A program made the position numbers and the translations under genes. Below, piece by piece: positions 35,421 to 44,775 of a stretch of 64,000 bases of DNA (position 1 is the first letter of the stretch; every line of letters starts with the position of its first letter). Source of the DNA: a phage. The stretch is from sequence record PX104378.1. One strand, written 5' to 3'. The notes beneath the pieces are model-generated. The model worked only from the letters and a program-made list of their open reading frames with translations. It was not told where the DNA came from and did not search any database.

Positions 35421-35450
35421 AGCCGATCCATGTGGTCGGCTTTATTTTTA
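35421..35450 (+). terminator. rho-independent terminator after gp35
   Basis: AGCCGA...TCGGCT hairpin followed by TTTATTTTTA. Confidence 0.5.
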
Positions 35451-35569
35451 TACAGTTGGTTAAAATGTAACCAAAACGAAGAAAGATCTTTAGAATATAG
35501 AAAATTTGTTTCGGTTAAAAATTAGTCAGTGCCTCCGGCACGTCGCGAAGCGATATTTTGTTAACATTC

Positions 35570-35577
35570 TATAAATA
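35570..35577 (+). promoter_or_regulatory. T4-type late promoter
   Basis: exact TATAAATA 34 nt upstream of gp36 ATG. Confidence 0.7.
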
Positions 35578-35610
35578 CTCGGAACTATAACTAATTTTTG
35601 AGGTTACTTT

Positions 35611-37101
35611 ATGGCAGATTTGAAACATGGATCTACTGTAGGTGGATCTCCCATTTGGACGCAAGGAAACTTGACGATCCAGCCAGCGGGGGACCAGCTT
35701 TTCTACAAAGGTCATAAAATCTATACCGCTTTTGATAGACCTTCGGCTACCGATTTTGATGCTGTTAGTGCATCCGAAGGTGGCACATTTCAAAAGCAAG
35801 TTCATTTCGAGGAAGGTTTAAGCGTAGGTAGCGCATCGGCTGGAGAAACCAAAAAGAACGGTATCTTTAAAGGCCAGAGCGATGCCGCTAATTTTGACGG
35901 CGTAAGCTGGGGTTTGCATTCATGGAAGTCAATCGGCTTTGTTAATGCCCGTGATGGCGTTATAATGGCGTATATTGACACCACAACGGGCGAATTTAAG
36001 TCTAAAGGGACTATCGAAGGGACAACCATTAAAGACACTGGTCAACGCGTCTATAGCCCTGTTAATAAACCAACGAATAATGATTTGGATTTAGTTTCCC
36101 GTCGCGGTGATACTCTCACAGGAACATATAATTTAAACACTGTCACTGTTAAACTATCGGTTGATTCGAAATTAATTGCAAGGGAACGTGATTTAATTAA
36201 TTTTGATGCGACTAAGATCTATTATGGTAACGTTCTTGACACGTTGGTCTTCCGAAGTAAAGATGAGCCTACCATTTTTGTTAATGGCAAAGAAGGTCGT
36301 TTTTATCACACCAACAATAAACCAACTAAAGCCGATGTTGGACTAGGCAATGTCACCAATGATGCACAGGTTAAACGTGCTGGTGATATTATGGAAGGTA
36401 ACTTGCAAGCGCCTAGAATGTTGGCGACAAACGATCCTGCTGGTCCTAATGAATTGGTTCGTTTGAGCTACTTTGAGAAAAAATCAATGGTAGCAAATCC
36501 AACAATCATTGGAAACGTTGATTGGAACACTCTTATTAATCGCGGTATCTATCGTGTGGAAAATGCTGGATCAGGTACTAATAAACCGTCTGATAGCTAT
36601 TATAACGGCGTTTTGATGGTATATCGCCCAGAAGATGCGGTCGGTACTCGTCGAATTGTTCAGGTTTATTATCCTGAATCTATTGACCATCCGATGTGCT
36701 GGCGTTCGTGTTCTAATGAATCATGGACTGCATGGAACTATGTAGATCACCGTAAATTAGCCGATATTCGCTATGTTAACGTAACTGGCGATACCATGAC
36801 AGGACCGTTAACTGTTCCTGCTGCAAATGGCGTTAGAACAGCTAAAACTAACTATAACGGGGATAACTGTTATGCGGCGTTAAGCGGTGCTGATGGCACT
36901 GCTATGATTCACCGCATTAGTGATATTAAAGGGACCGAAAAGCTGGGGATCACCCACGACTCAAAGGTCGTGTTTTTCCGTTCTAGAAACAATACTCAAA
37001 CCGTGGACCGCTATCAGCTTTATCATGAAGGCAATAAACCTACTCCGGCTGATGTTGGAGCAGTTCCACTTAATGCGGTGATTGATTTTGGTACTTTCTA
37101 A
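35611..37101 (+). CDS. 36: long tail fibre distal connector gp36 (enlarged)
   Basis: 496 aa; N-terminus MADLKHGSTVGGSPIWTQGN matches T4 gp36 MADLKVGSTTGGSVIWHQGN; more than twice T4 length. Confidence 0.75.
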   Translation: MADLKHGSTVGGSPIWTQGNLTIQPAGDQLFYKGHKIYTAFDRPSATDFDAVSASEGGTFQKQVHFEEGLSVGSASAGETKKNGIFKGQSDAANFDGVSWGLHSWKSIGFVNARDGVIMAYIDTTTGEFKSKGTIEGTTIKDTGQRVYSPVNKPTNNDLDLVSRRGDTLTGTYNLNTVTVKLSVDSKLIARERDLINFDATKIYYGNVLDTLVFRSKDEPTIFVNGKEGRFYHTNNKPTKADVGLGNVTNDAQVKRAGDIMEGNLQAPRMLATNDPAGPNELVRLSYFEKKSMVANPTIIGNVDWNTLINRGIYRVENAGSGTNKPSDSYYNGVLMVYRPEDAVGTRRIVQVYYPESIDHPMCWRSCSNESWTAWNYVDHRKLADIRYVNVTGDTMTGPLTVPAANGVRTAKTNYNGDNCYAALSGADGTAMIHRISDIKGTEKLGITHDSKVVFFRSRNNTQTVDRYQLYHEGNKPTPADVGAVPLNAVIDFGTF

Positions 37102-37105
37102 TTTT

Positions 37106-37129
37106 AGCGGGGATTATCTCCCCGCTTTT
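37106..37129 (+). terminator. hairpin after gp36 (attenuator or terminator)
   Basis: AGCGGGGA-TTATC-TCCCCGCT followed by TTTTC. Confidence 0.5.
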
Positions 37130-37171
37130 CTAAATAATATTATTCTAATAACCGTTTAAGGATTTTATAAA

Positions 37172-39940
37172 ATGGCAGATTTAAGCAGAATCCAATTTAA
37201 ACGCACTAGCACTAAAGGTCGTCGACCTGATGCTGGTACGATGAATCCGGGTGAGTTGGCGATCAACTTAGCCGACCAATATTTGCTTACTAAAAACGAC
37301 TCAGGTGCTATTATCAATTTAAGTTGTCCTCCGGTGTATGACCGCGATGTTACAATGGCTGGTAAAGTTAAAGGTAATAATTATATCTTAAGTAAAACCG
37401 CTAACTATCTGGAAGATCAGACAGCGCGAGATCTTAACTACTTTGGTGCTTTCCGTACCAATGGTCTTGATGGTTTTCTAGAACTAACGCTAAACGTTCC
37501 TCATTCTTCTGGTGTTCAGCATGGTCGAGGATTTACTTTCCAGTATGGTCACACTGGATCGCGAGTAGAAACCTATGGCTATAATAGAGAAGGTCAAAAA
37601 GCATTCAGCTATAAAATGTATCACGAAGGTGATAAACCAACTCCAGGAGAATTGAACGTTTATAGCAAACAAGAAGTAGATAGAATGTTTGTTAAGAACG
37701 TTAAACTTGCTACAGTTCCTGGTGATACAGTTGAAGGCTATTTTAAATTAGCAACTGCAATGATTCCACAAAATGGTCGTAGTGTATTTTTCCGTATTCA
37801 TGGTGGTAACGGATATAACGTTACTGCATACGATCAAGTTGATATTGTAGAAATTGTTATTCGCAGTGGAAATAATCGCCCTAAAGGTGTTAACGTTATT
37901 GCATATCGCCGAAATACAAACAAATCATTTGATGTTTTGGCTGTTAATACTTCTGGTGATAACTATGATATCTATGTGAAATATCAGCGTTACACTGATA
38001 ACGTTATTGTTGAATTTGGTAAAAGTGTTGATGTTAATCTGGTAGTTCATGACGTTCCAGATTTTGTTGCTGAACGTCCTGCTGGTGATAATGTTATTGG
38101 CGGTCGCGCGGTAACTCTTTTCAACACCGAAAATAAACGTGGTGTGTTGAGTTTTGACGATAACACACAAAATAGCTATGATATTGTTCACTTGAGTAAT
38201 GATAAAGGTACTGGACGAAAATATATTCGTAAATTCCGTAGCAACTATAATGAAATGATCTGGCATGAGACTGTTCAAGGTTCCAGTTATCGTCTGGCTA
38301 CTGGTAGCACTGATGCTCAGGAAATTATGACTATTGAATCTAGTAGCTCAATTGCTGGAACTCATAAAGGTAATATTATTTCTGGTCGTATGCTGTTAAA
38401 TGGCGGATCTAATGCCATTACACTACGCCGACCTGCTGGTCAATCTAATCATATTGCGTTTCAAGATAATCGTACTGGAGATATTACCCGTCAAGGATGG
38501 ATCGGTTATGCAAACGCCGATACTGACGTTTTTGAATGGTATAGTGATGTAGGTGGCAGTTCTATTCGTCAACATATCGACGGACAGATCGAATTTCAGA
38601 CAGGTAACATGAAGCGAGTTTATACCAACGGTCAATTCATTTCTTTATATGCTGATGGCTTCCGTACTGTATATGGTAACTATGGATCATGGTGGCGAAA
38701 TGACGGTAGTAACGTTTATCTGATGAGCACAAAATCAGGCGACGCTATGGGTCCGTGGAATACCTTTAGGCCGTTCATATACAGTCTCGCCAATGGAAAC
38801 GTTACTCTAGGTGGTAGCGATGCTGGCAATCATTTAATGCGTCTCAATAATGAAAATCGTCAAGTAGAAATAAATGCAACAACACATTTAGGGTCTCGAT
38901 TATATTGGGAACGTAGCGAAGGATCGGCATCTAGATTTTTTATTAAGAATTGGGGTAATGGAACTTCTCGCGCTCAAGTGTGGGAACTTGCTGACGAGAC
39001 AGGTTATCATGTATATTCTCAGCGAAACGACGCGGGTGTTCTTCAATTCCGTACTGCTGGTAATTTTGAGACTGGTGGTGATGCTCAAGTAAACGGGACT
39101 TTACGTGTCACCAATGTTCTTCGAACAGATAACCAAATTCAGATTTATCGCGATAACAACAAAGAACTCTGGTTTAAGGATGCTAATGGTACTAACCGTG
39201 GTGTTATCTGGGGTGATAGCACAGGTCAAATGCGCATTCGAAACTATAACAGCGGAGAATTTGACCATGTTTTCCAGACTGGTATGATTCGCTTAGAACG
39301 TGGGTATGCAAACGGTAGCGACCGTGGTTTGATTCGCGGAGAAGTACAAGGTGGTGCTTGGTCAGAATGGAAAACTCGCGCTGCTGGCTTATTGGTTGAC
39401 TGTCCAGCTGCTCAAACTTCCGCATATAACGTATGGAAAGCGACCAAATGGGGTTTAGACCACATCGCGGCAATGGGCGTTCATGTTCCTAGTGGTGTTA
39501 TTACTAATGCTATGGCACGTCTTCATATTCATACCACAAACTTTGACTTTAACGCATCTGGTGATTTCCAAGCTGGTCGCAATGGTAACTTTAACGATGT
39601 TTACATTCGCTCTGATGCTCGCCTGAAAATCAATAAGGAAGAGTATAAGGAGAATGCCACCGATAAAGTTAATCGCTTGACGGTATACACCTATGACAAG
39701 GTTAAATCTTTAACCGACCGTACTGTCATTGCTCATGAAGTCGGTATTATTGCTCAGGATCTTGAAAAAGAATTGCCGGAAGCAGTAACAACTTCTAAGG
39801 TCGGCGATCCTGATAAGCCAGAAGAGATCTTAACAATTTCTAACTCTGCTGTCAACGCTCTTTTAATTAAGGCGTTTCAGGAAATGAGCGAAGAATTGAA
39901 AGTCGTTAAAGCTGAACTAGCGGAACTTAAAAAGAATTAA
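37172..39940 (+). CDS. 37: long tail fibre distal subunit gp37 with C-terminal intramolecular chaperone domain
   Basis: 922 aa; N-terminus QFKRTS..GRRPDAG...GELAINL matches T4 gp37; C-terminal SDARLKINKEE...GIIAQDLEKELPEAV resembles peptidase S74 domain. Confidence 0.8.
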   Translation: MADLSRIQFKRTSTKGRRPDAGTMNPGELAINLADQYLLTKNDSGAIINLSCPPVYDRDVTMAGKVKGNNYILSKTANYLEDQTARDLNYFGAFRTNGLDGFLELTLNVPHSSGVQHGRGFTFQYGHTGSRVETYGYNREGQKAFSYKMYHEGDKPTPGELNVYSKQEVDRMFVKNVKLATVPGDTVEGYFKLATAMIPQNGRSVFFRIHGGNGYNVTAYDQVDIVEIVIRSGNNRPKGVNVIAYRRNTNKSFDVLAVNTSGDNYDIYVKYQRYTDNVIVEFGKSVDVNLVVHDVPDFVAERPAGDNVIGGRAVTLFNTENKRGVLSFDDNTQNSYDIVHLSNDKGTGRKYIRKFRSNYNEMIWHETVQGSSYRLATGSTDAQEIMTIESSSSIAGTHKGNIISGRMLLNGGSNAITLRRPAGQSNHIAFQDNRTGDITRQGWIGYANADTDVFEWYSDVGGSSIRQHIDGQIEFQTGNMKRVYTNGQFISLYADGFRTVYGNYGSWWRNDGSNVYLMSTKSGDAMGPWNTFRPFIYSLANGNVTLGGSDAGNHLMRLNNENRQVEINATTHLGSRLYWERSEGSASRFFIKNWGNGTSRAQVWELADETGYHVYSQRNDAGVLQFRTAGNFETGGDAQVNGTLRVTNVLRTDNQIQIYRDNNKELWFKDANGTNRGVIWGDSTGQMRIRNYNSGEFDHVFQTGMIRLERGYANGSDRGLIRGEVQGGAWSEWKTRAAGLLVDCPAAQTSAYNVWKATKWGLDHIAAMGVHVPSGVITNAMARLHIHTTNFDFNASGDFQAGRNGNFNDVYIRSDARLKINKEEYKENATDKVNRLTVYTYDKVKSLTDRTVIAHEVGIIAQDLEKELPEAVTTSKVGDPDKPEEILTISNSAVNALLIKAFQEMSEELKVVKAELAELKKN

Positions 39941-39982
39941 GGAAAACTCCCAGGGAAGGGAAACTACTAAGGAGAAACGGCT

Positions 39983-40222
39983 ATGGTCTATAATATCGTC
40001 ATTGGTGCTTTGTCTAATTTCGGAATGAAACTATTGTCAAAGTTAATTAGTGAAAAGATGCTCACTAAAATTTTCTTCTACTGCGCTCGTCGTCTTGCGG
40101 CTTATACCAATACGCCAATTGATGATCGTTTCGTGGAAGAACTTTATAAGGAGTTTAATAAAGATCAGTCAGAAGATAGTAACGAGCAAGATAAACCTAG
40201 TGATAGTCAAGTACCTAAATAA
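39983..40222 (+). CDS. hypothetical protein with hydrophobic N-terminus (79 aa)
   Basis: AAGGAG SD; sits where T4 has gene 38. Confidence 0.45.
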   Translation: MVYNIVIGALSNFGMKLLSKLISEKMLTKIFFYCARRLAAYTNTPIDDRFVEELYKEFNKDQSEDSNEQDKPSDSQVPK

Positions 40223-40950: not shown

Positions 40951-41196
40951 TTGGCGCATAGAAGCCCCTGAATCACATTTTGACGCTGTATGATGAAAAC
41001 ATGTAGCGTACCAGTCATCGGCTTGCTTGTCTTCGTCAGAGAACGCGTAATTTCGTTGTATACCGTTTTCTACTTTGACCAGTGCAATAGCTGTTTCTGG
41101 AAGATCAATCAATCGGACAAAATCACCATCTTCCCATTCTACACGAGCAATATCATAACCCATCTCAAAATAAACAATCGCTTGCTCTAATCTCAT
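40948..41196 (-). CDS. hypothetical protein (82 aa)
   Basis: ORF; last gene of minus-strand block converging on t. Confidence 0.45.
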   Translation of the reverse strand: MRLEQAIVYFEMGYDIARVEWEDGDFVRLIDLPETAIALVKVENGIQRNYAFSDEDKQADDWYATCFHHTASKCDSGASMRQ

Positions 41197-41525
41197 TCTG
41201 GAAACTTCCCGTAAATGTTCTCTGCCAACATACGCGCATCGCTAATGATATCTTTCATGCTATGACCGTAGTGTTCAGCCATTGAGTTGACACAATCAAC
41301 AAAGAAATTATAACGGCGACGGTTTAAGATTTCTTCTCTGCTATAGTTTTCATATTTGACGGTCGAGTGTGCTTTCTCGATTGCCTTTATCGCTATATTG
41401 ACTTCATTGATAATGGTTTTAGCATTGTATGCACCACGACGGATCAGGATATTTGTCAATTCTCTTGCAATATCTTGCAATTCTTCATATTCATGTTCAA
41501 ACATAATCAACCTCTCAAAATACAA
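41193..41525 (-). CDS. hypothetical protein (110 aa)
   Basis: ORF with 4-nt overlap to downstream gene. Confidence 0.5.
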   Translation of the reverse strand: MYFERLIMFEHEYEELQDIARELTNILIRRGAYNAKTIINEVNIAIKAIEKAHSTVKYENYSREEILNRRRYNFFVDCVNSMAEHYGHSMKDIISDARMLAENIYGKFPE

Positions 41526-42464: not shown

Positions 42465-42764
42465 TTATTTTCGGTTGTGGTCACGATATGTTTTAAAATA
42501 TCCCTCGTACCACGGTAAAACATCTGGATTTTTACCACTATACAGACCTTTAACCATCATGTCAATAAGACCGTCCGGTGTTTGATAATTACCAGCTTTT
42601 ATAAGCTCTCTGATTAAAATTTCCTTGTATATGTCTTTCGGATCTTCGTAATCAACTTGTATTGTGGTTGTTGTCCCGCTTAATTTGGTTTCTGGAGTAT
42701 CTTGCATCGCCTTCCACCAATCTTTTGTAATCTTCATGCTGTTGAATTTCATAATTATCTGCAC
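42465..42764 (-). CDS. hypothetical protein (99 aa)
   Basis: ORF overlapping the 3' end of 42755..43522. Confidence 0.45.
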   Translation of the reverse strand: MQIIMKFNSMKITKDWWKAMQDTPETKLSGTTTTIQVDYEDPKDIYKEILIRELIKAGNYQTPDGLIDMMVKGLYSGKNPDVLPWYEGYFKTYRDHNRK

Positions 42765-43522
42765 CCGTACTGGTCAACATAGGTTTTAGAGTGTCCTTGT
42801 TCGCGGACTTCTAAGCGAATGATATCGCTATCCTGTTCACGCCACACATAATACTTTTTATTTTCTTTCCAGCCGCTAAAAACGATCATTCCGTTGTCAT
42901 CAACTACTCGTTTTGTGTTTGCCTTATGAACATCATTATTGTCGATGTATGTAAAATGGATAATCTGACCATCTTTTACTTTCAGAGTCAATTCACCTGG
43001 ATTGTATTCTTTATAAAAAGGCTGTTCTTTCGGCTTAGTGTTTGCTCCGTCGATATTTTTCCATTTAAAGTGAGATTCACATTGCAAGGTAAACTCGCTG
43101 GTTTGTGGTTTCTTTTCTTTCTTCGGTTGCTCTACCACTTTTTCTTCCTGTTTCGGTTGTTCTTCTTCAACCTTCGCAGAAGTCTCTGAATCGCTTTCTG
43201 ACGCTGTTTCTTCTTTAGGTAATACATTCATCAAGTTTTGGATTTGAGCGTTATATACAGCCTCCAGTGGCTGAATCTGCCCGATATTGATCATTGTATC
43301 ACGAACGGTTTTATTCCAGTTGCGTTGCTCTTGTTTCAGAGACGGATCAATCTTAACAGCCTTAACATATACTTCATGGAGTTTAGAATCCAGTGCGGAG
43401 ATTGACTCATTAGCACAAATAAACTTCTCTGATTTGGTAGTGGCTTTAGCGCAATCGAAGGACGCAGCATTAGCACCGAATGCAGTAGCAGAAAGAACGA
43501 TAGCAGCGATAATGTTTTTCAT
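42755..43522 (-). CDS. secreted protein with DUF1311 (LprI-like) N-terminal domain
   Basis: signal peptide MKNIIAAIVLSATAFGANA; then FDCAKATT.SEKFICANESISALDSKLHEVY ... EQRNW typical of DUF1311. Confidence 0.55.
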   Translation of the reverse strand: MKNIIAAIVLSATAFGANAASFDCAKATTKSEKFICANESISALDSKLHEVYVKAVKIDPSLKQEQRNWNKTVRDTMINIGQIQPLEAVYNAQIQNLMNVLPKEETASESDSETSAKVEEEQPKQEEKVVEQPKKEKKPQTSEFTLQCESHFKWKNIDGANTKPKEQPFYKEYNPGELTLKVKDGQIIHFTYIDNNDVHKANTKRVVDDNGMIVFSGWKENKKYYVWREQDSDIIRLEVREQGHSKTYVDQYGCR

Positions 43523-43556
43523 AATATATTCCTCAGTGTTTTGTCTTGATGTGAGT

Positions 43557-43585
43557 ATCTTACTACTCCCTTAATCCGGTGTCAA
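43557..43585 (-). promoter_or_regulatory. sigma70-type early promoter cassette
   Basis: TTGACA-N17-TAAGAT on minus strand. Confidence 0.5.
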
Positions 43586-44100: not shown

Positions 44101-44343
44101 TTAGAAATTTTTCGCTTCTTCTTCGGTCATCATAACCGCGCATTCGTGCATAACTTTGAAAACCGGATCAATCATGTCAAATGCTTCACGGGACAGTTTA
44201 CGAGAAGCGATTTTGATTGCTTCTACGTCTTCTACTACAGGAACAAAAACAGTTTTCAGTTCGTCGAGGACGGCAGCTTCTTTTTCATTCAGGAAGATCC
44301 CAGCGTCGTACAGTGCAACTTCGATAACATTAACTTTAACCAT
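44101..44343 (-). CDS. hypothetical protein (80 aa)
   Basis: start at MVKVNVIEV with GGAGGAA SD. Confidence 0.5.
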   Translation of the reverse strand: MVKVNVIEVALYDAGIFLNEKEAAVLDELKTVFVPVVEDVEAIKIASRKLSREAFDMIDPVFKVMHECAVMMTEEEAKNF

Positions 44344-44377
44344 TTTTATTTCCTCCAGTTCGTTTCGGTATGGGAGT

Positions 44378-44406
44378 ATAATACTACCGATGACCTTTGG
44401 CGTCAA
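44378..44406 (-). promoter_or_regulatory. sigma70-type early promoter cassette
   Basis: TTGACG-N17-TATTAT on minus strand. Confidence 0.45.
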
Positions 44407-44608
44407 CTGCTTTTTTATTATTTTCGTGAAAATTTTTCGTCGCCTCATGTGCTTTTCGCTGGGCTTCTTGTTGTGCTTGCTGGCGTGCTGCCTCTTGCGA
44501 TGCCATAACGGAAGCATTTGCGGCAGTTACAGCCGCTACCATCGCTGCGGTATTGGCATTTACAGTACATGCGCTCGCCAACAAAGCAATTGCAATCATT
44601 TTCTTCAT
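44384..44608 (-). CDS. small secreted protein (74 aa)
   Basis: N-terminal signal-like MKKMIAIALLASACTVNA; AGGGGA SD; 3' end overlaps next promoter cassette. Confidence 0.45.
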   Translation of the reverse strand: MKKMIAIALLASACTVNANTAAMVAAVTAANASVMASQEAARQQAQQEAQRKAHEATKNFHENNKKAVDAKGHR

Positions 44609-44775
44609 AATTTCCCCTTTAGGTTATCTTCGACCTTCATCCATTCCGCATATTCTTGCGCGGCTACTTTCGGAATTAGGCCGTCTTCGTACATTGCCTC
44701 AAGTAATTCTTCGTCGGTGGGCTTATACCCCAGATAAGCCGCAACCTGATTTTTCCAAATCTTATACCAGTTCAT
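44605..44775 (-). CDS. hypothetical protein (56 aa)
   Basis: start taken at MNWYKIW; weak SD. Confidence 0.35.
   Translation of the reverse strand: MNWYKIWKNQVAAYLGYKPTDEELLEAMYEDGLIPKVAAQEYAEWMKVEDNLKGKL

What the first reader, a model, noticed from the sequence alone, without database searches (positions are those of the whole stretch)
42755..43522. Secreted DUF1311 (LprI-like) protein encoded in the early accessory block
The product has a clear signal peptide followed by the DUF1311 pattern (Cys pair, conserved QRNW) and a C-terminal domain of unknown type. DUF1311 proteins include periplasmic lysozyme inhibitors. A phage-encoded one could block superinfecting phage lysozyme or modulate host envelope enzymes.
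Basis: partly seen in the sequence, partly recalled or inferred. Interest (0 to 1): 0.5.

Follow-up and report, generated by a model that had tools for sequence, protein, structure and literature searches.

The report
Phage periplasmic LprI-like two-domain protein
An RB49-like (T4-type) E. coli phage encodes an exported protein with an almost invariant DUF1311 domain tethered to a small beta-barrel that is exchanged as a cassette between phages. It most likely neutralises cell-wall-cutting enzymes arriving in the periplasm, though nobody has tested this.

Summary
Window 42755-43522 (- strand) is a real 255-aa gene in a Krischvirus genome. It has a Sec-type signal peptide and a DUF1311/LprI match above Pfam's cut-off (26 vs 22 bits).

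New findings:
1. The "unknown" C-terminal domain is confidently predicted (pLDDT 92) as an 8-stranded beta-barrel. Its only invariant residues are a Cys in the first strand, a Cys in the last strand, and one Gly. This is the MliC/PliC/ACP/PhiA lysozyme-inhibitor fold type, but no sequence or profile homology is detectable. The protein therefore mimics M. tuberculosis LprI (DUF1311 + MliC) in architecture only.
2. The barrel is a discrete swappable cassette (window 42757-43120). At least 12 types exist in two superclasses, attached to an N-module under strong purifying selection (dN/dS 0-0.08).
3. The same N-module, about 95% identical in DNA, heads a polymorphic gene at the end of a hicB-integrated prophage in 26 of 5426 complete E. 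coli chromosomes.
4. Cassette type does not follow tail-fibre type.

Best reading (about 0.4): an early periplasmic immunity-like inhibitor of incoming peptidoglycan hydrolases. The lysozyme-inhibitor label is only partly justified. I rate it a new variant of a known kind, of moderate interest.

The parts
43557..43585 (-). Sigma-70-type promoter-like site (TTGACA, 17 nt, TAAGAT), about 35 nt upstream of the start codon
   Evidence: 10 of 12 consensus matches. This is only a consensus match: 12 sites were found in the region against 10.3 expected from shuffles.
43529..43534 (-). Ribosome-binding site GAGGAA, 6 nt before the ATG
   Evidence: Read from the sequence.
42755..43522 (-). Coding sequence, 255 codons plus stop. 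Orthologue of RB49p262 (NP_891833.1).
43466..43522 (-). Signal peptide, residues 1-19 (MKNIIAAIVLSATAFGANA), with predicted cleavage ANA|AS
   Evidence: Sequence features. The junction is conserved in homologues from three phage genera.
43214..43465 (-). DUF1311/LprI helical domain, residues 20-103, containing C24, C36 and the EQRNW motif. It is almost invariant across homologues.
   Evidence: Pfam PF07007, 26 bits. Helices predicted at 30-98. Invariant columns. dN/dS 0-0.08.
43103..43213 (-). Charged Glu/Lys/Pro/Ser-rich linker, residues 104-140, predicted disordered
   Evidence: pLDDT below 50 for residues 104-137. Length varies between homologues.
42758..43102 (-). C-terminal 8-stranded beta-barrel domain, residues 141-255. 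C148 lies in the first strand and C254 in the last.
42757..43120 (-). Replaceable cassette: the only stretch of the locus with no DNA similarity to RB49-type relatives. It runs from codon ~135 in the linker to the stop codon.
   Evidence: blastn against 13 Krischvirus loci. Found in only 1 of 50,697 phage records.
43152..43528 (-). N-module (6 nt upstream of the ATG to codon ~124), shared at 94.7% DNA identity with a gene at the end of hicB-integrated E. coli prophages

Best explanation
The gene encodes an early, Sec-exported soluble periplasmic protein built from two tethered binding modules. One is an invariant DUF1311 helical domain. The other is a disulfide-stapled 8-stranded beta-barrel, joined by a flexible charged linker of about 40 residues.

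I propose that it acts as an immunity-type inhibitor. It would bind and neutralise peptidoglycan-cleaving enzymes that reach the periplasm of the infected cell or lysogen. Candidate targets are tail-associated lysozymes of superinfecting phages, lysozyme-like T6SS effectors and muramidase bacteriocins. The effect would be to protect the cell wall, much as T4 Spackle does for T4. The constant DUF1311 module would recognise a conserved target. The exchangeable barrel cassette would set a second, variable specificity.

Shown here: the gene, the export signal features, the DUF1311 membership, the barrel fold (predicted), the cassette polymorphism, the purifying selection and the sharing with prophages.

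Inferred: periplasmic location, disulfide formation, binding to any hydrolase, and the protective phenotype.
For: - DUF1311 match above Pfam's cut-off.
- DUF1311 proteins act against cell-wall-targeting toxins. Etsi4 does so experimentally. LprI-domain genes are immunity genes beside lysozyme-like effectors.
- The C-domain is confidently predicted as an 8-stranded barrel.
- The beta1-beta8 disulfide that defines that fold (PMC5507604; PMC8334348) corresponds to the only two invariant Cys of the domain.
- The overall architecture equals that of LprI, namely DUF1311 + MliC barrel.
- Both modules are under purifying selection.
- The gene is kept at the end of prophages, and in one IS-riddled ~7-kb remnant, in 26 of 5426 E. 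coli chromosomes. This is typical of a cargo gene that benefits the host rather than harms it.
- RB49's own endolysin is an M15 peptidase, while its tail gp5 carries a GH24 lysozyme domain. A muramidase inhibitor would therefore not obstruct the phage's own lysis.
- No Spackle homologue was found in the window or in RB49 0-95 kb.
Against: - No biochemical or genetic data exist for any phage member.
- The barrel lacks the SxSGAxY/YxxxTKG inhibitory motifs. It gives no Pfam MliC hit and only 4% hhalign probability against an E. coli-type MliC alignment.
- PhiA, the closest inhibitor-like hit, failed to inhibit its proposed target in vitro.
- The DUF1311-only protein ScwA conferred no lysozyme resistance.
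- Klebsiella Marfavirus carries both Spackle and a DUF1311 protein, so the two are not simple substitutes.
- Variation between cassette types is spread over strands and loops alike and is not focused on binding loops.
Confidence: 0.4

Rival explanations
1. It regulates host peptidoglycan-remodelling enzymes and does not inhibit foreign ones. Like Salmonella ScwA, the DUF1311 module would bind and stabilise or restrain an endogenous lytic transglycosylase or endopeptidase such as MltD. This would tune wall turnover during infection, for example to support cell enlargement or timed lysis.
For: ScwA is the only studied enterobacterial DUF1311-only periplasmic protein. It controls MltD levels and does not affect lysozyme sensitivity. 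The invariant N-domain would fit a conserved host target.
Against: - ScwA has a different architecture, with DUF1311 at the C-terminus and no barrel.
- This reading does not explain why the second domain is polymorphic.
Confidence: 0.15
2. It is a receptor-masking superinfection-exclusion protein, comparable to T5 Llp or the Cor proteins. The variable barrel would bind the outer-membrane receptor used by the phage's own tail fibre and block further adsorption or DNA entry.
For: It is an exported early protein. The C-domain is polymorphic. The gene lies about 3 kb from the tail-fibre genes. It occupies a cargo position in prophages, where exclusion genes often sit.
Against: Cassette type does not follow tail-fibre type.
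- The RB49-type cassette occurs with gp37-only tips (RB49, ELT4, FL38, W115, Brandy) and with gp37+gp38 adhesin tips (Skers, FL04, KMB43, MIZ4).
- The window and UPWr_E1 share a 98.4% identical cassette but show no DNA similarity at the gp37 3' end.
- There is no lipobox or membrane anchor.
Confidence: 0.08
3. The barrel is a small-ligand binder (lipocalin/YceI-like for isoprenoid lipids, or Cap15-like for nucleotides). It would sequester an envelope lipid intermediate or a signalling molecule.
Against: - Across all types only two Cys and one Gly are invariant. Ligand pockets normally keep conserved residues.
- Cyclic-nucleotide signals are cytoplasmic, whereas this protein carries an export signal.
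- Matches are at the level of generic barrel topology (rmsd 3.4-4).
Confidence: 0.07
4. It is a polymorphic secreted effector or toxin, or a lysis-inhibition accessory factor (antiholin-like), with a constant delivery or partner-binding N-domain and a variable active C-domain.
For: The layout of constant N-module plus linker plus variable C-module resembles polymorphic toxins. The gene lies near holin t.
Against: - No co-varying immunity gene is present. The gene immediately downstream is conserved at 96-98% across different cassette types.
- The barrel is 110 residues long with no catalytic motif and no family match.
- The gene is retained in one prophage remnant.
- RB49 already has rI.
- PADLOC finds nothing.
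Confidence: 0.06

Closest known systems
Mycobacterium tuberculosis LprI (Rv1541c)
   Same: Exported protein with an N-terminal DUF1311 (PF07007) domain followed by an 8-stranded barrel domain.
   Different: LprI is a lipoprotein, and its barrel is a bona fide MliC domain (PF09864). The phage protein has a signal-peptidase I site and no lipobox. Its barrel has no detectable sequence relationship to MliC. The barrel is also polymorphic.
MliC/PliC family and the structurally related ACP and PhiA (periplasmic lysozyme / peptidoglycan-hydrolase inhibitors)
   Same: Small (~100 aa) periplasmic 8-stranded antiparallel barrel stapled by a beta1-beta8 disulfide. ACP and PhiA also lack the MliC motifs.
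DUF1311 T6SS immunity proteins (EHEC Etsi4; Pantoea orphan LprI-domain immunity genes)
   Same: Signal peptide plus DUF1311. Periplasmic antagonism of cell-wall-targeting toxins is shown for Etsi4.
   Different: Those proteins sit beside effector genes in T6SS islands. The phage gene has no effector partner, and it carries an additional barrel domain.
Phage T4 Spackle (Sp, gene 61.3)
   Same: Early, signal-peptide-bearing periplasmic protein of a T4-type phage. In T4 it inhibits the gp5 tail lysozyme of superinfecting phage (established knowledge). This is the functional model proposed here.
   Different: There is no sequence similarity, Sp is a single 97-aa helical domain, and no Sp homologue was found in the window or in RB49 0-95 kb. 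Marfavirus has both Sp and a DUF1311 protein.
Salmonella ScwA
   Same: Soluble periplasmic DUF1311 protein with functionally important disulfides.
   Different: In ScwA the DUF1311 domain is C-terminal and there is no barrel. ScwA raises MltD levels and gives no lysozyme resistance.

Membership tests
DUF1311 / LprI family (Pfam PF07007) | Profile match above the curated gathering score | tested here: met
   26.0 bits against a cut-off of 22, E 1.2e-5, residues 24-76. Only profile positions 1-71 of 106 are aligned. Precomputed PF07007 hits exist on many homologues.
DUF1311 / LprI family (Pfam PF07007) | Conserved cysteines and a helical fold | tested here: met
   C24 and C36 are invariant. Helices are predicted at 30-37, 39-58, 62-80 and 84-98, but only at pLDDT 60-70.
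DUF1311 / LprI family (Pfam PF07007) | Lysozyme-inhibiting activity, as the family name implies | not testable with these tools
   According to PMC7933661 there is no experimental evidence for this activity in the DUF1311 domain itself. Etsi4 antagonises a cell-wall toxin.
MliC/PliC lysozyme inhibitors (Pfam PF09864) | Eight-stranded antiparallel beta-barrel | tested here: met
MliC/PliC lysozyme inhibitors (Pfam PF09864) | Disulfide between the first and last strands | tested here: inconclusive
   C148 lies in strand 141-157 and C254 ends strand 246-254. Both are invariant in all 21 homologues.
MliC/PliC lysozyme inhibitors (Pfam PF09864) | SxSGAxY and YxxxTKG inhibitory motifs | tested here: not met
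   The motifs are absent. This allele has only 'FSGWKE', and that is not conserved in other cassette types.
MliC/PliC lysozyme inhibitors (Pfam PF09864) | Sequence or profile homology | tested here: not met
   No PF09864 hit at E <= 10 for any of 13 C-domains. hhalign probability is 4.3% against a shallow E. coli-type MliC alignment. A profile search of PDB sequences finds no inhibitor.
T4 Spackle family | Sequence similarity to T4 Sp | tested here: not met
   This protein shows no similarity, and tblastn finds no significant Sp-like sequence in the window.
Bacterial lipoproteins | Lipobox [LVI][ASTVI][GAS]C at the end of the signal peptide | tested here: not met
   The first Cys follows ...ANAASFD, and Asp at position -1 is incompatible with a lipobox.
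Polymorphic toxin / immunity modules | Variable C-terminal domain followed by a co-varying immunity gene | tested here: not met
   The C-domain is variable, but the adjacent downstream gene is 96-98% identical across different cassette types.

The most novel reading that the evidence does not exclude
The locus is a phage-borne cassette system for periplasmic immunity. A fixed export-plus-DUF1311 chassis carries one of at least 12 interchangeable barrel heads. Each head would neutralise a different incoming peptidoglycan hydrolase, such as a tail lysin of a rival phage, a T6SS muramidase or a bacteriocin. Modules would be traded between virulent T4-type phages and temperate E. coli prophages. 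This would be a new class of superinfection-exclusion or host-protection determinant. It would also be the first function for an orphan barrel family seen almost only in this gene pool.
Probability: 0.2. Interest if true: 0.7.

Novelty: new variant of a known kind. Interest (0 to 1): 0.5.

Why it matters
RB49-like phages lack recognisable Spackle or Imm genes in the regions examined. A periplasmic anti-hydrolase protein would explain how they protect infected cells from lysis from without and from superinfection.

The locus also shows domain-level modular exchange very clearly. One recombination joint lies in a low-complexity linker and the other exactly at the stop codon. The N-module is shared between virulent and temperate phages.

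If the barrels are specific inhibitors, they form a natural library of small disulfide-stabilised binders against cell-wall hydrolases. That matters for phage-cocktail design (cross-exclusion) and for endolysin therapeutics.

The finding also warns that the database name "lysozyme inhibitor LprI family protein" rests on a domain whose inhibitory role is unproven.

Tried and rejected
- Sequence homologues of the C-domain. An exhaustive HMM search of 1.84 billion representatives found only the family itself, one fragment and three repeat-protein artefacts. Pfam, NCBIfam, PADLOC and PDB sequence searches found nothing meaningful.
- MliC homology. hhalign gave 4% probability, so homology is not supported. 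The MliC alignment used was shallow (>=71% identity), so this is a weak negative.
- Covariation of cassette type with the tail-fibre adhesin. Rejected.
- A co-varying downstream immunity gene. Rejected.
- Hypervariability focused on loops. Not seen: the share of the commonest residue is 0.58 in strands and 0.53 in loops. Indels do fall in loops 1, 5 and 7.
- Spackle homologue in Krischvirus. None in the window or in RB49 0-95 kb. RB49 95-114 kb was not examined.
- Antiholin role. Disfavoured because RB49 has rI.
- The afdb50 fold library was unavailable.
- BFVD returned only the RB49 orthologue and uncharacterised phage (lipo)proteins with similar barrels.
- A PDB profile search with a four-sequence DUF1311 alignment found no solved relative.
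- The LprI primary paper (PMC4742756) is not held. Statements about LprI domains are taken from PMC7933661.

Full report
**What is there**

Window 42755-43522 (- strand) is a 255-codon ORF with an ATG start. A GAGGAA ribosome-binding site lies 6 nt upstream. A TTGACA-17-TAAGAT promoter-like site lies at 43557-43585. That site is only a consensus match, because 12 such sites occur in the region against 10.3 expected from shuffles.

The surrounding DNA is 95-97% identical to RB49-like T4-type phages of the genus Krischvirus, such as ELT4, FL38, W115 and RB49. The gene is the orthologue of RB49p262. It lies between topoisomerase gene 52/rIIB and holin t plus the tail-fibre genes, on the strand of the early genes. 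The window itself is not in the phage collection. Its version of the 3' part of the gene occurs in only one of 50,697 records, UPWr_E1.

**Checking the observation**

- The N-terminus MKNIIAAIVLSATAFGANA|ASFDC has the features of a signal-peptidase I signal and no lipobox.
- The same AxA|ASFDC junction is seen in DUF1311 proteins of Klebsiella Marfavirus and Aeromonas Ceceduovirus phages.
- Pfam LprI/DUF1311 (PF07007) matches residues 24-76 at 26 bits, above the 22-bit cut-off, although only profile positions 1-71 of 106 align.
- PHROG 14799 (unknown function) matches end to end.
- NCBIfam and PADLOC give nothing.
- The gene is under strong purifying selection: N-domain dN/dS is 0-0.08 at dS 0.13-0.22.

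**Anatomy**

An alignment of 21 homologues shows three parts.

- Residues 1-106 (signal peptide plus DUF1311) are almost invariant.
- Residues 104-140 form a Glu/Lys/Pro/Ser-rich linker. It varies in length and is predicted disordered (pLDDT < 50).
- Residues 141-255 are so variable that only C148, G159 and C254 are invariant.

AlphaFold2 on the C-domain alone gives pLDDT 91.7 and pTM 0.83. The model is an all-beta meander of eight main strands. The helical N-domain is modelled at only pLDDT 60-70.

**The C-domain fold**

- Foldseek against PDB gives only weak lipocalin, FABP and LolA matches, none with E <= 0.001.
- Lower in the list are Brucella PliC (6.8, rmsd 2.3) and Neisseria ACP (6.4).
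- PhiA, PliC and ACP share the MliC/PliC fold. That fold is defined in the literature as an 8-stranded barrel stabilised by a disulfide between the first and last strands. The disulfide is preserved even where the SxSGAxY/YxxxTKG motifs are lost (PMC5507604; PMC8334348).
- The two invariant cysteines of the phage domain sit in exactly those strands.

M. tuberculosis LprI is DUF1311 + MliC (PMC7933661). The phage protein therefore reproduces the LprI architecture.

Homology of the barrel to MliC is not supported, however.

- No PF09864 hit was found for any of 13 C-domains.
- hhalign probability is 4% against an E. coli-type MliC alignment.
- The inhibitory motifs are absent.
- An exhaustive profile search of 1.84 billion representative proteins found only the family itself plus artefacts.

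At the sequence level the domain is an orphan. BFVD shows that other phages encode uncharacterised (lipo)proteins with a similar barrel.

**The cassette**

blastn of the window against 13 Krischvirus loci shows 94-98% identity on both sides and no similarity across window 42757-43120. That gap runs from codon ~135 in the linker to the stop codon. The gene immediately downstream (42465-42752, 95 aa, no Pfam hit) is conserved across different cassette types, so it is not a co-varying partner.

Clustering the C-domains at 85% identity gives 12 types in two superclasses. Identity is 26-57% between most types within a superclass (up to 81% for the closest pairs) and essentially undetectable between superclasses.

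Within a type the cassette is under purifying selection (dN/dS 0-0.22). It also shows about half the nucleotide diversity of the adjoining N-domain: 1.5-1.8% against 3.2-4.8%. This is compatible with cassettes having spread more recently than the backbone diverged, but the counts are small.

Differences between types are spread over strands and loops alike. Indels fall in loops 1, 5 and 7, which in a meander barrel lie at the end opposite the linker (the topology argument is an inference).

**Not tied to host range**

The RB49-type cassette occurs with gp37-only tail-fibre tips (RB49, ELT4, FL38, W115, Brandy). It also occurs with gp37+gp38 adhesin tips (Skers, FL04, KMB43, MIZ4). The window and UPWr_E1 share a 98.4% identical cassette but have no DNA similarity in the 3' part of gp37. 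This argues against a protein that masks the phage's own receptor.

**Shared with prophages**

A homologue, annotated as a lysozyme inhibitor LprI family protein, is present in 26 of 5426 complete E. coli chromosomes. Its N-domain is 95-96.5% identical in DNA to the phage gene. In all eight genomes inspected it lies at one end of an element inserted in hicB. In strain E275a that element is a prophage with capsid, portal and terminase genes. In strain L73 it is an IS-riddled 7-kb remnant.

The shared DNA is only window 43152-43528, from 6 nt upstream of the ATG to codon ~124. The promoters and the rest of the locus are unrelated. The prophage copies carry three further cassette types, two from superclass A and one from superclass B.

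So the export signal, DUF1311 domain and linker form a mobile N-module, and the barrel forms a second, independently exchanged module. Retention in a decayed prophage suggests that the product benefits the cell.

**The same design elsewhere**

Klebsiella phage PWKp16 (Marfavirus) encodes a 250-aa protein and Aeromonas phage AS-sw a 239-aa protein of the same design. Each has a signal peptide, DUF1311, a charged linker and a different C-terminal domain that again contains two cysteines.

**Function**

No experiment exists for any phage member. The literature search found nothing on phage DUF1311 proteins. The relevant knowledge is as follows.

- In LprI, the MliC domain is the part described as sufficient for lysozyme resistance (PMC7933661).
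- The DUF1311-only protein ScwA gives no lysozyme resistance and raises MltD levels.
- The DUF1311 protein Etsi4 rescues E. coli from the periplasm-acting toxin Etse4.
- LprI-domain and ACP-like genes occur as immunity genes beside lysozyme-like or endolysin-like T6SS effectors.

Both modules of the phage protein therefore belong to structural classes used as periplasmic antagonists of peptidoglycan hydrolases.

In RB49 the endolysin is an M15 peptidase, whereas the tail hub gp5 carries a GH24 lysozyme domain. A muramidase inhibitor would not hinder the phage's own lysis but could act on incoming tails, as T4 Spackle does (established knowledge). No Spackle homologue was found in the window or in RB49 0-95 kb. 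Spackle and a DUF1311 protein do coexist in Marfavirus.

My best explanation, at a confidence of about 0.4, is an early periplasmic immunity-type inhibitor of incoming peptidoglycan hydrolases with a constant and a variable specificity module. The rivals are:

- ScwA-like regulation of host wall enzymes (0.15);
- receptor masking (0.08);
- ligand binding by the barrel (0.07);
- an effector or antiholin role (0.06; RB49 already has rI).

**Verdict**

Public annotation already calls these proteins LprI-family members, so the DUF1311 assignment is not new.

What is new:

- the predicted MliC/PliC-type barrel, which gives an LprI-like architecture without sequence homology;
- the precise cassette polymorphism;
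- the exchange of modules between virulent T4-type phages and hicB-integrated prophages.

I rate this a new variant of a known kind, with interest 0.5.

Noticed in passing
window 44384-44608 (- strand); indel region 44112-44617: A 74-aa ORF (MKKMIAIALLASACTVNA...) has a signal-peptide or lipoprotein-like N-terminus and a Gln/Ala-rich tail. It lies in a stretch present in ELT4, FL38 and W115 (where it is annotated 'putative membrane protein') but missing from RB49, UPWr_E1, Phi1 and JSE. It may be a second small exported accessory protein, about 1 kb upstream of the finding.
   Followed up: partly
window 41319-41519: A second short segment lacks DNA similarity to most relatives (RB49, ELT4, FL38, W115, FL04, KMB43, UPWr_E1, Phi1). 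It is continuous with Skers, MIZ4 and Brandy. It overlaps the 5' part of the 110-aa ORF at 41193-41525, suggesting another allelic replacement inside a small early gene.
   Followed up: no
L017 14089-14640 (E. coli E275a), and the same position in L020-L026: A conserved 183-184-aa hypothetical protein is always encoded divergently, about 360 bp upstream of the prophage LprI-family gene at the hicB end of the element. It could be a functional partner or a regulator.
   Followed up: no
L017 and L020 (E. coli chromosomes), hicB locus: hicB, the antitoxin gene of the HicAB toxin-antitoxin pair, is split by a prophage or its remnant in every carrier inspected. This leaves hicA next to a truncated hicB. 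How HicA is kept in check in these strains was not examined.
   Followed up: no
L018 5001-5753 (Klebsiella phage PWKp16); L019 2474-3193 (Aeromonas phage AS-sw): Other T4-type genera encode proteins with a signal peptide, DUF1311, a charged linker and unrelated two-cysteine C-terminal domains. The Klebsiella C-domain looks helical. DUF1311 therefore seems to serve as a general chassis for variable periplasmic heads in T4-like phages.
   Followed up: partly
L027 9719-10108, 20150-21952 and 367-1143 (RB49): The RB49 endolysin is an M15 peptidase, not a lysozyme, while gp5 keeps a GH24 lysozyme domain. RB49 also has a gp38-like adhesin gene (RB49p079) far from the tail-fibre cluster.
   Followed up: partly
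window 35445-40000 compared with L001, L006, L009-L012: The tail-fibre module is mosaic among close relatives. The window's gp37 is ELT4-like (90.7% identity). UPWr_E1 has an unrelated tip with three extra small ORFs. Skers, FL04, KMB43 and MIZ4 carry a gp38 adhesin.
   Followed up: partly
window 42757-43120 compared with 43208-43522: Within each cassette type, nucleotide diversity of the barrel is about half that of the adjacent N-domain: 16 against 31 segregating sites among nine RB49-type phages. This hints at recent spread of cassettes across older backbones.
   Followed up: partly
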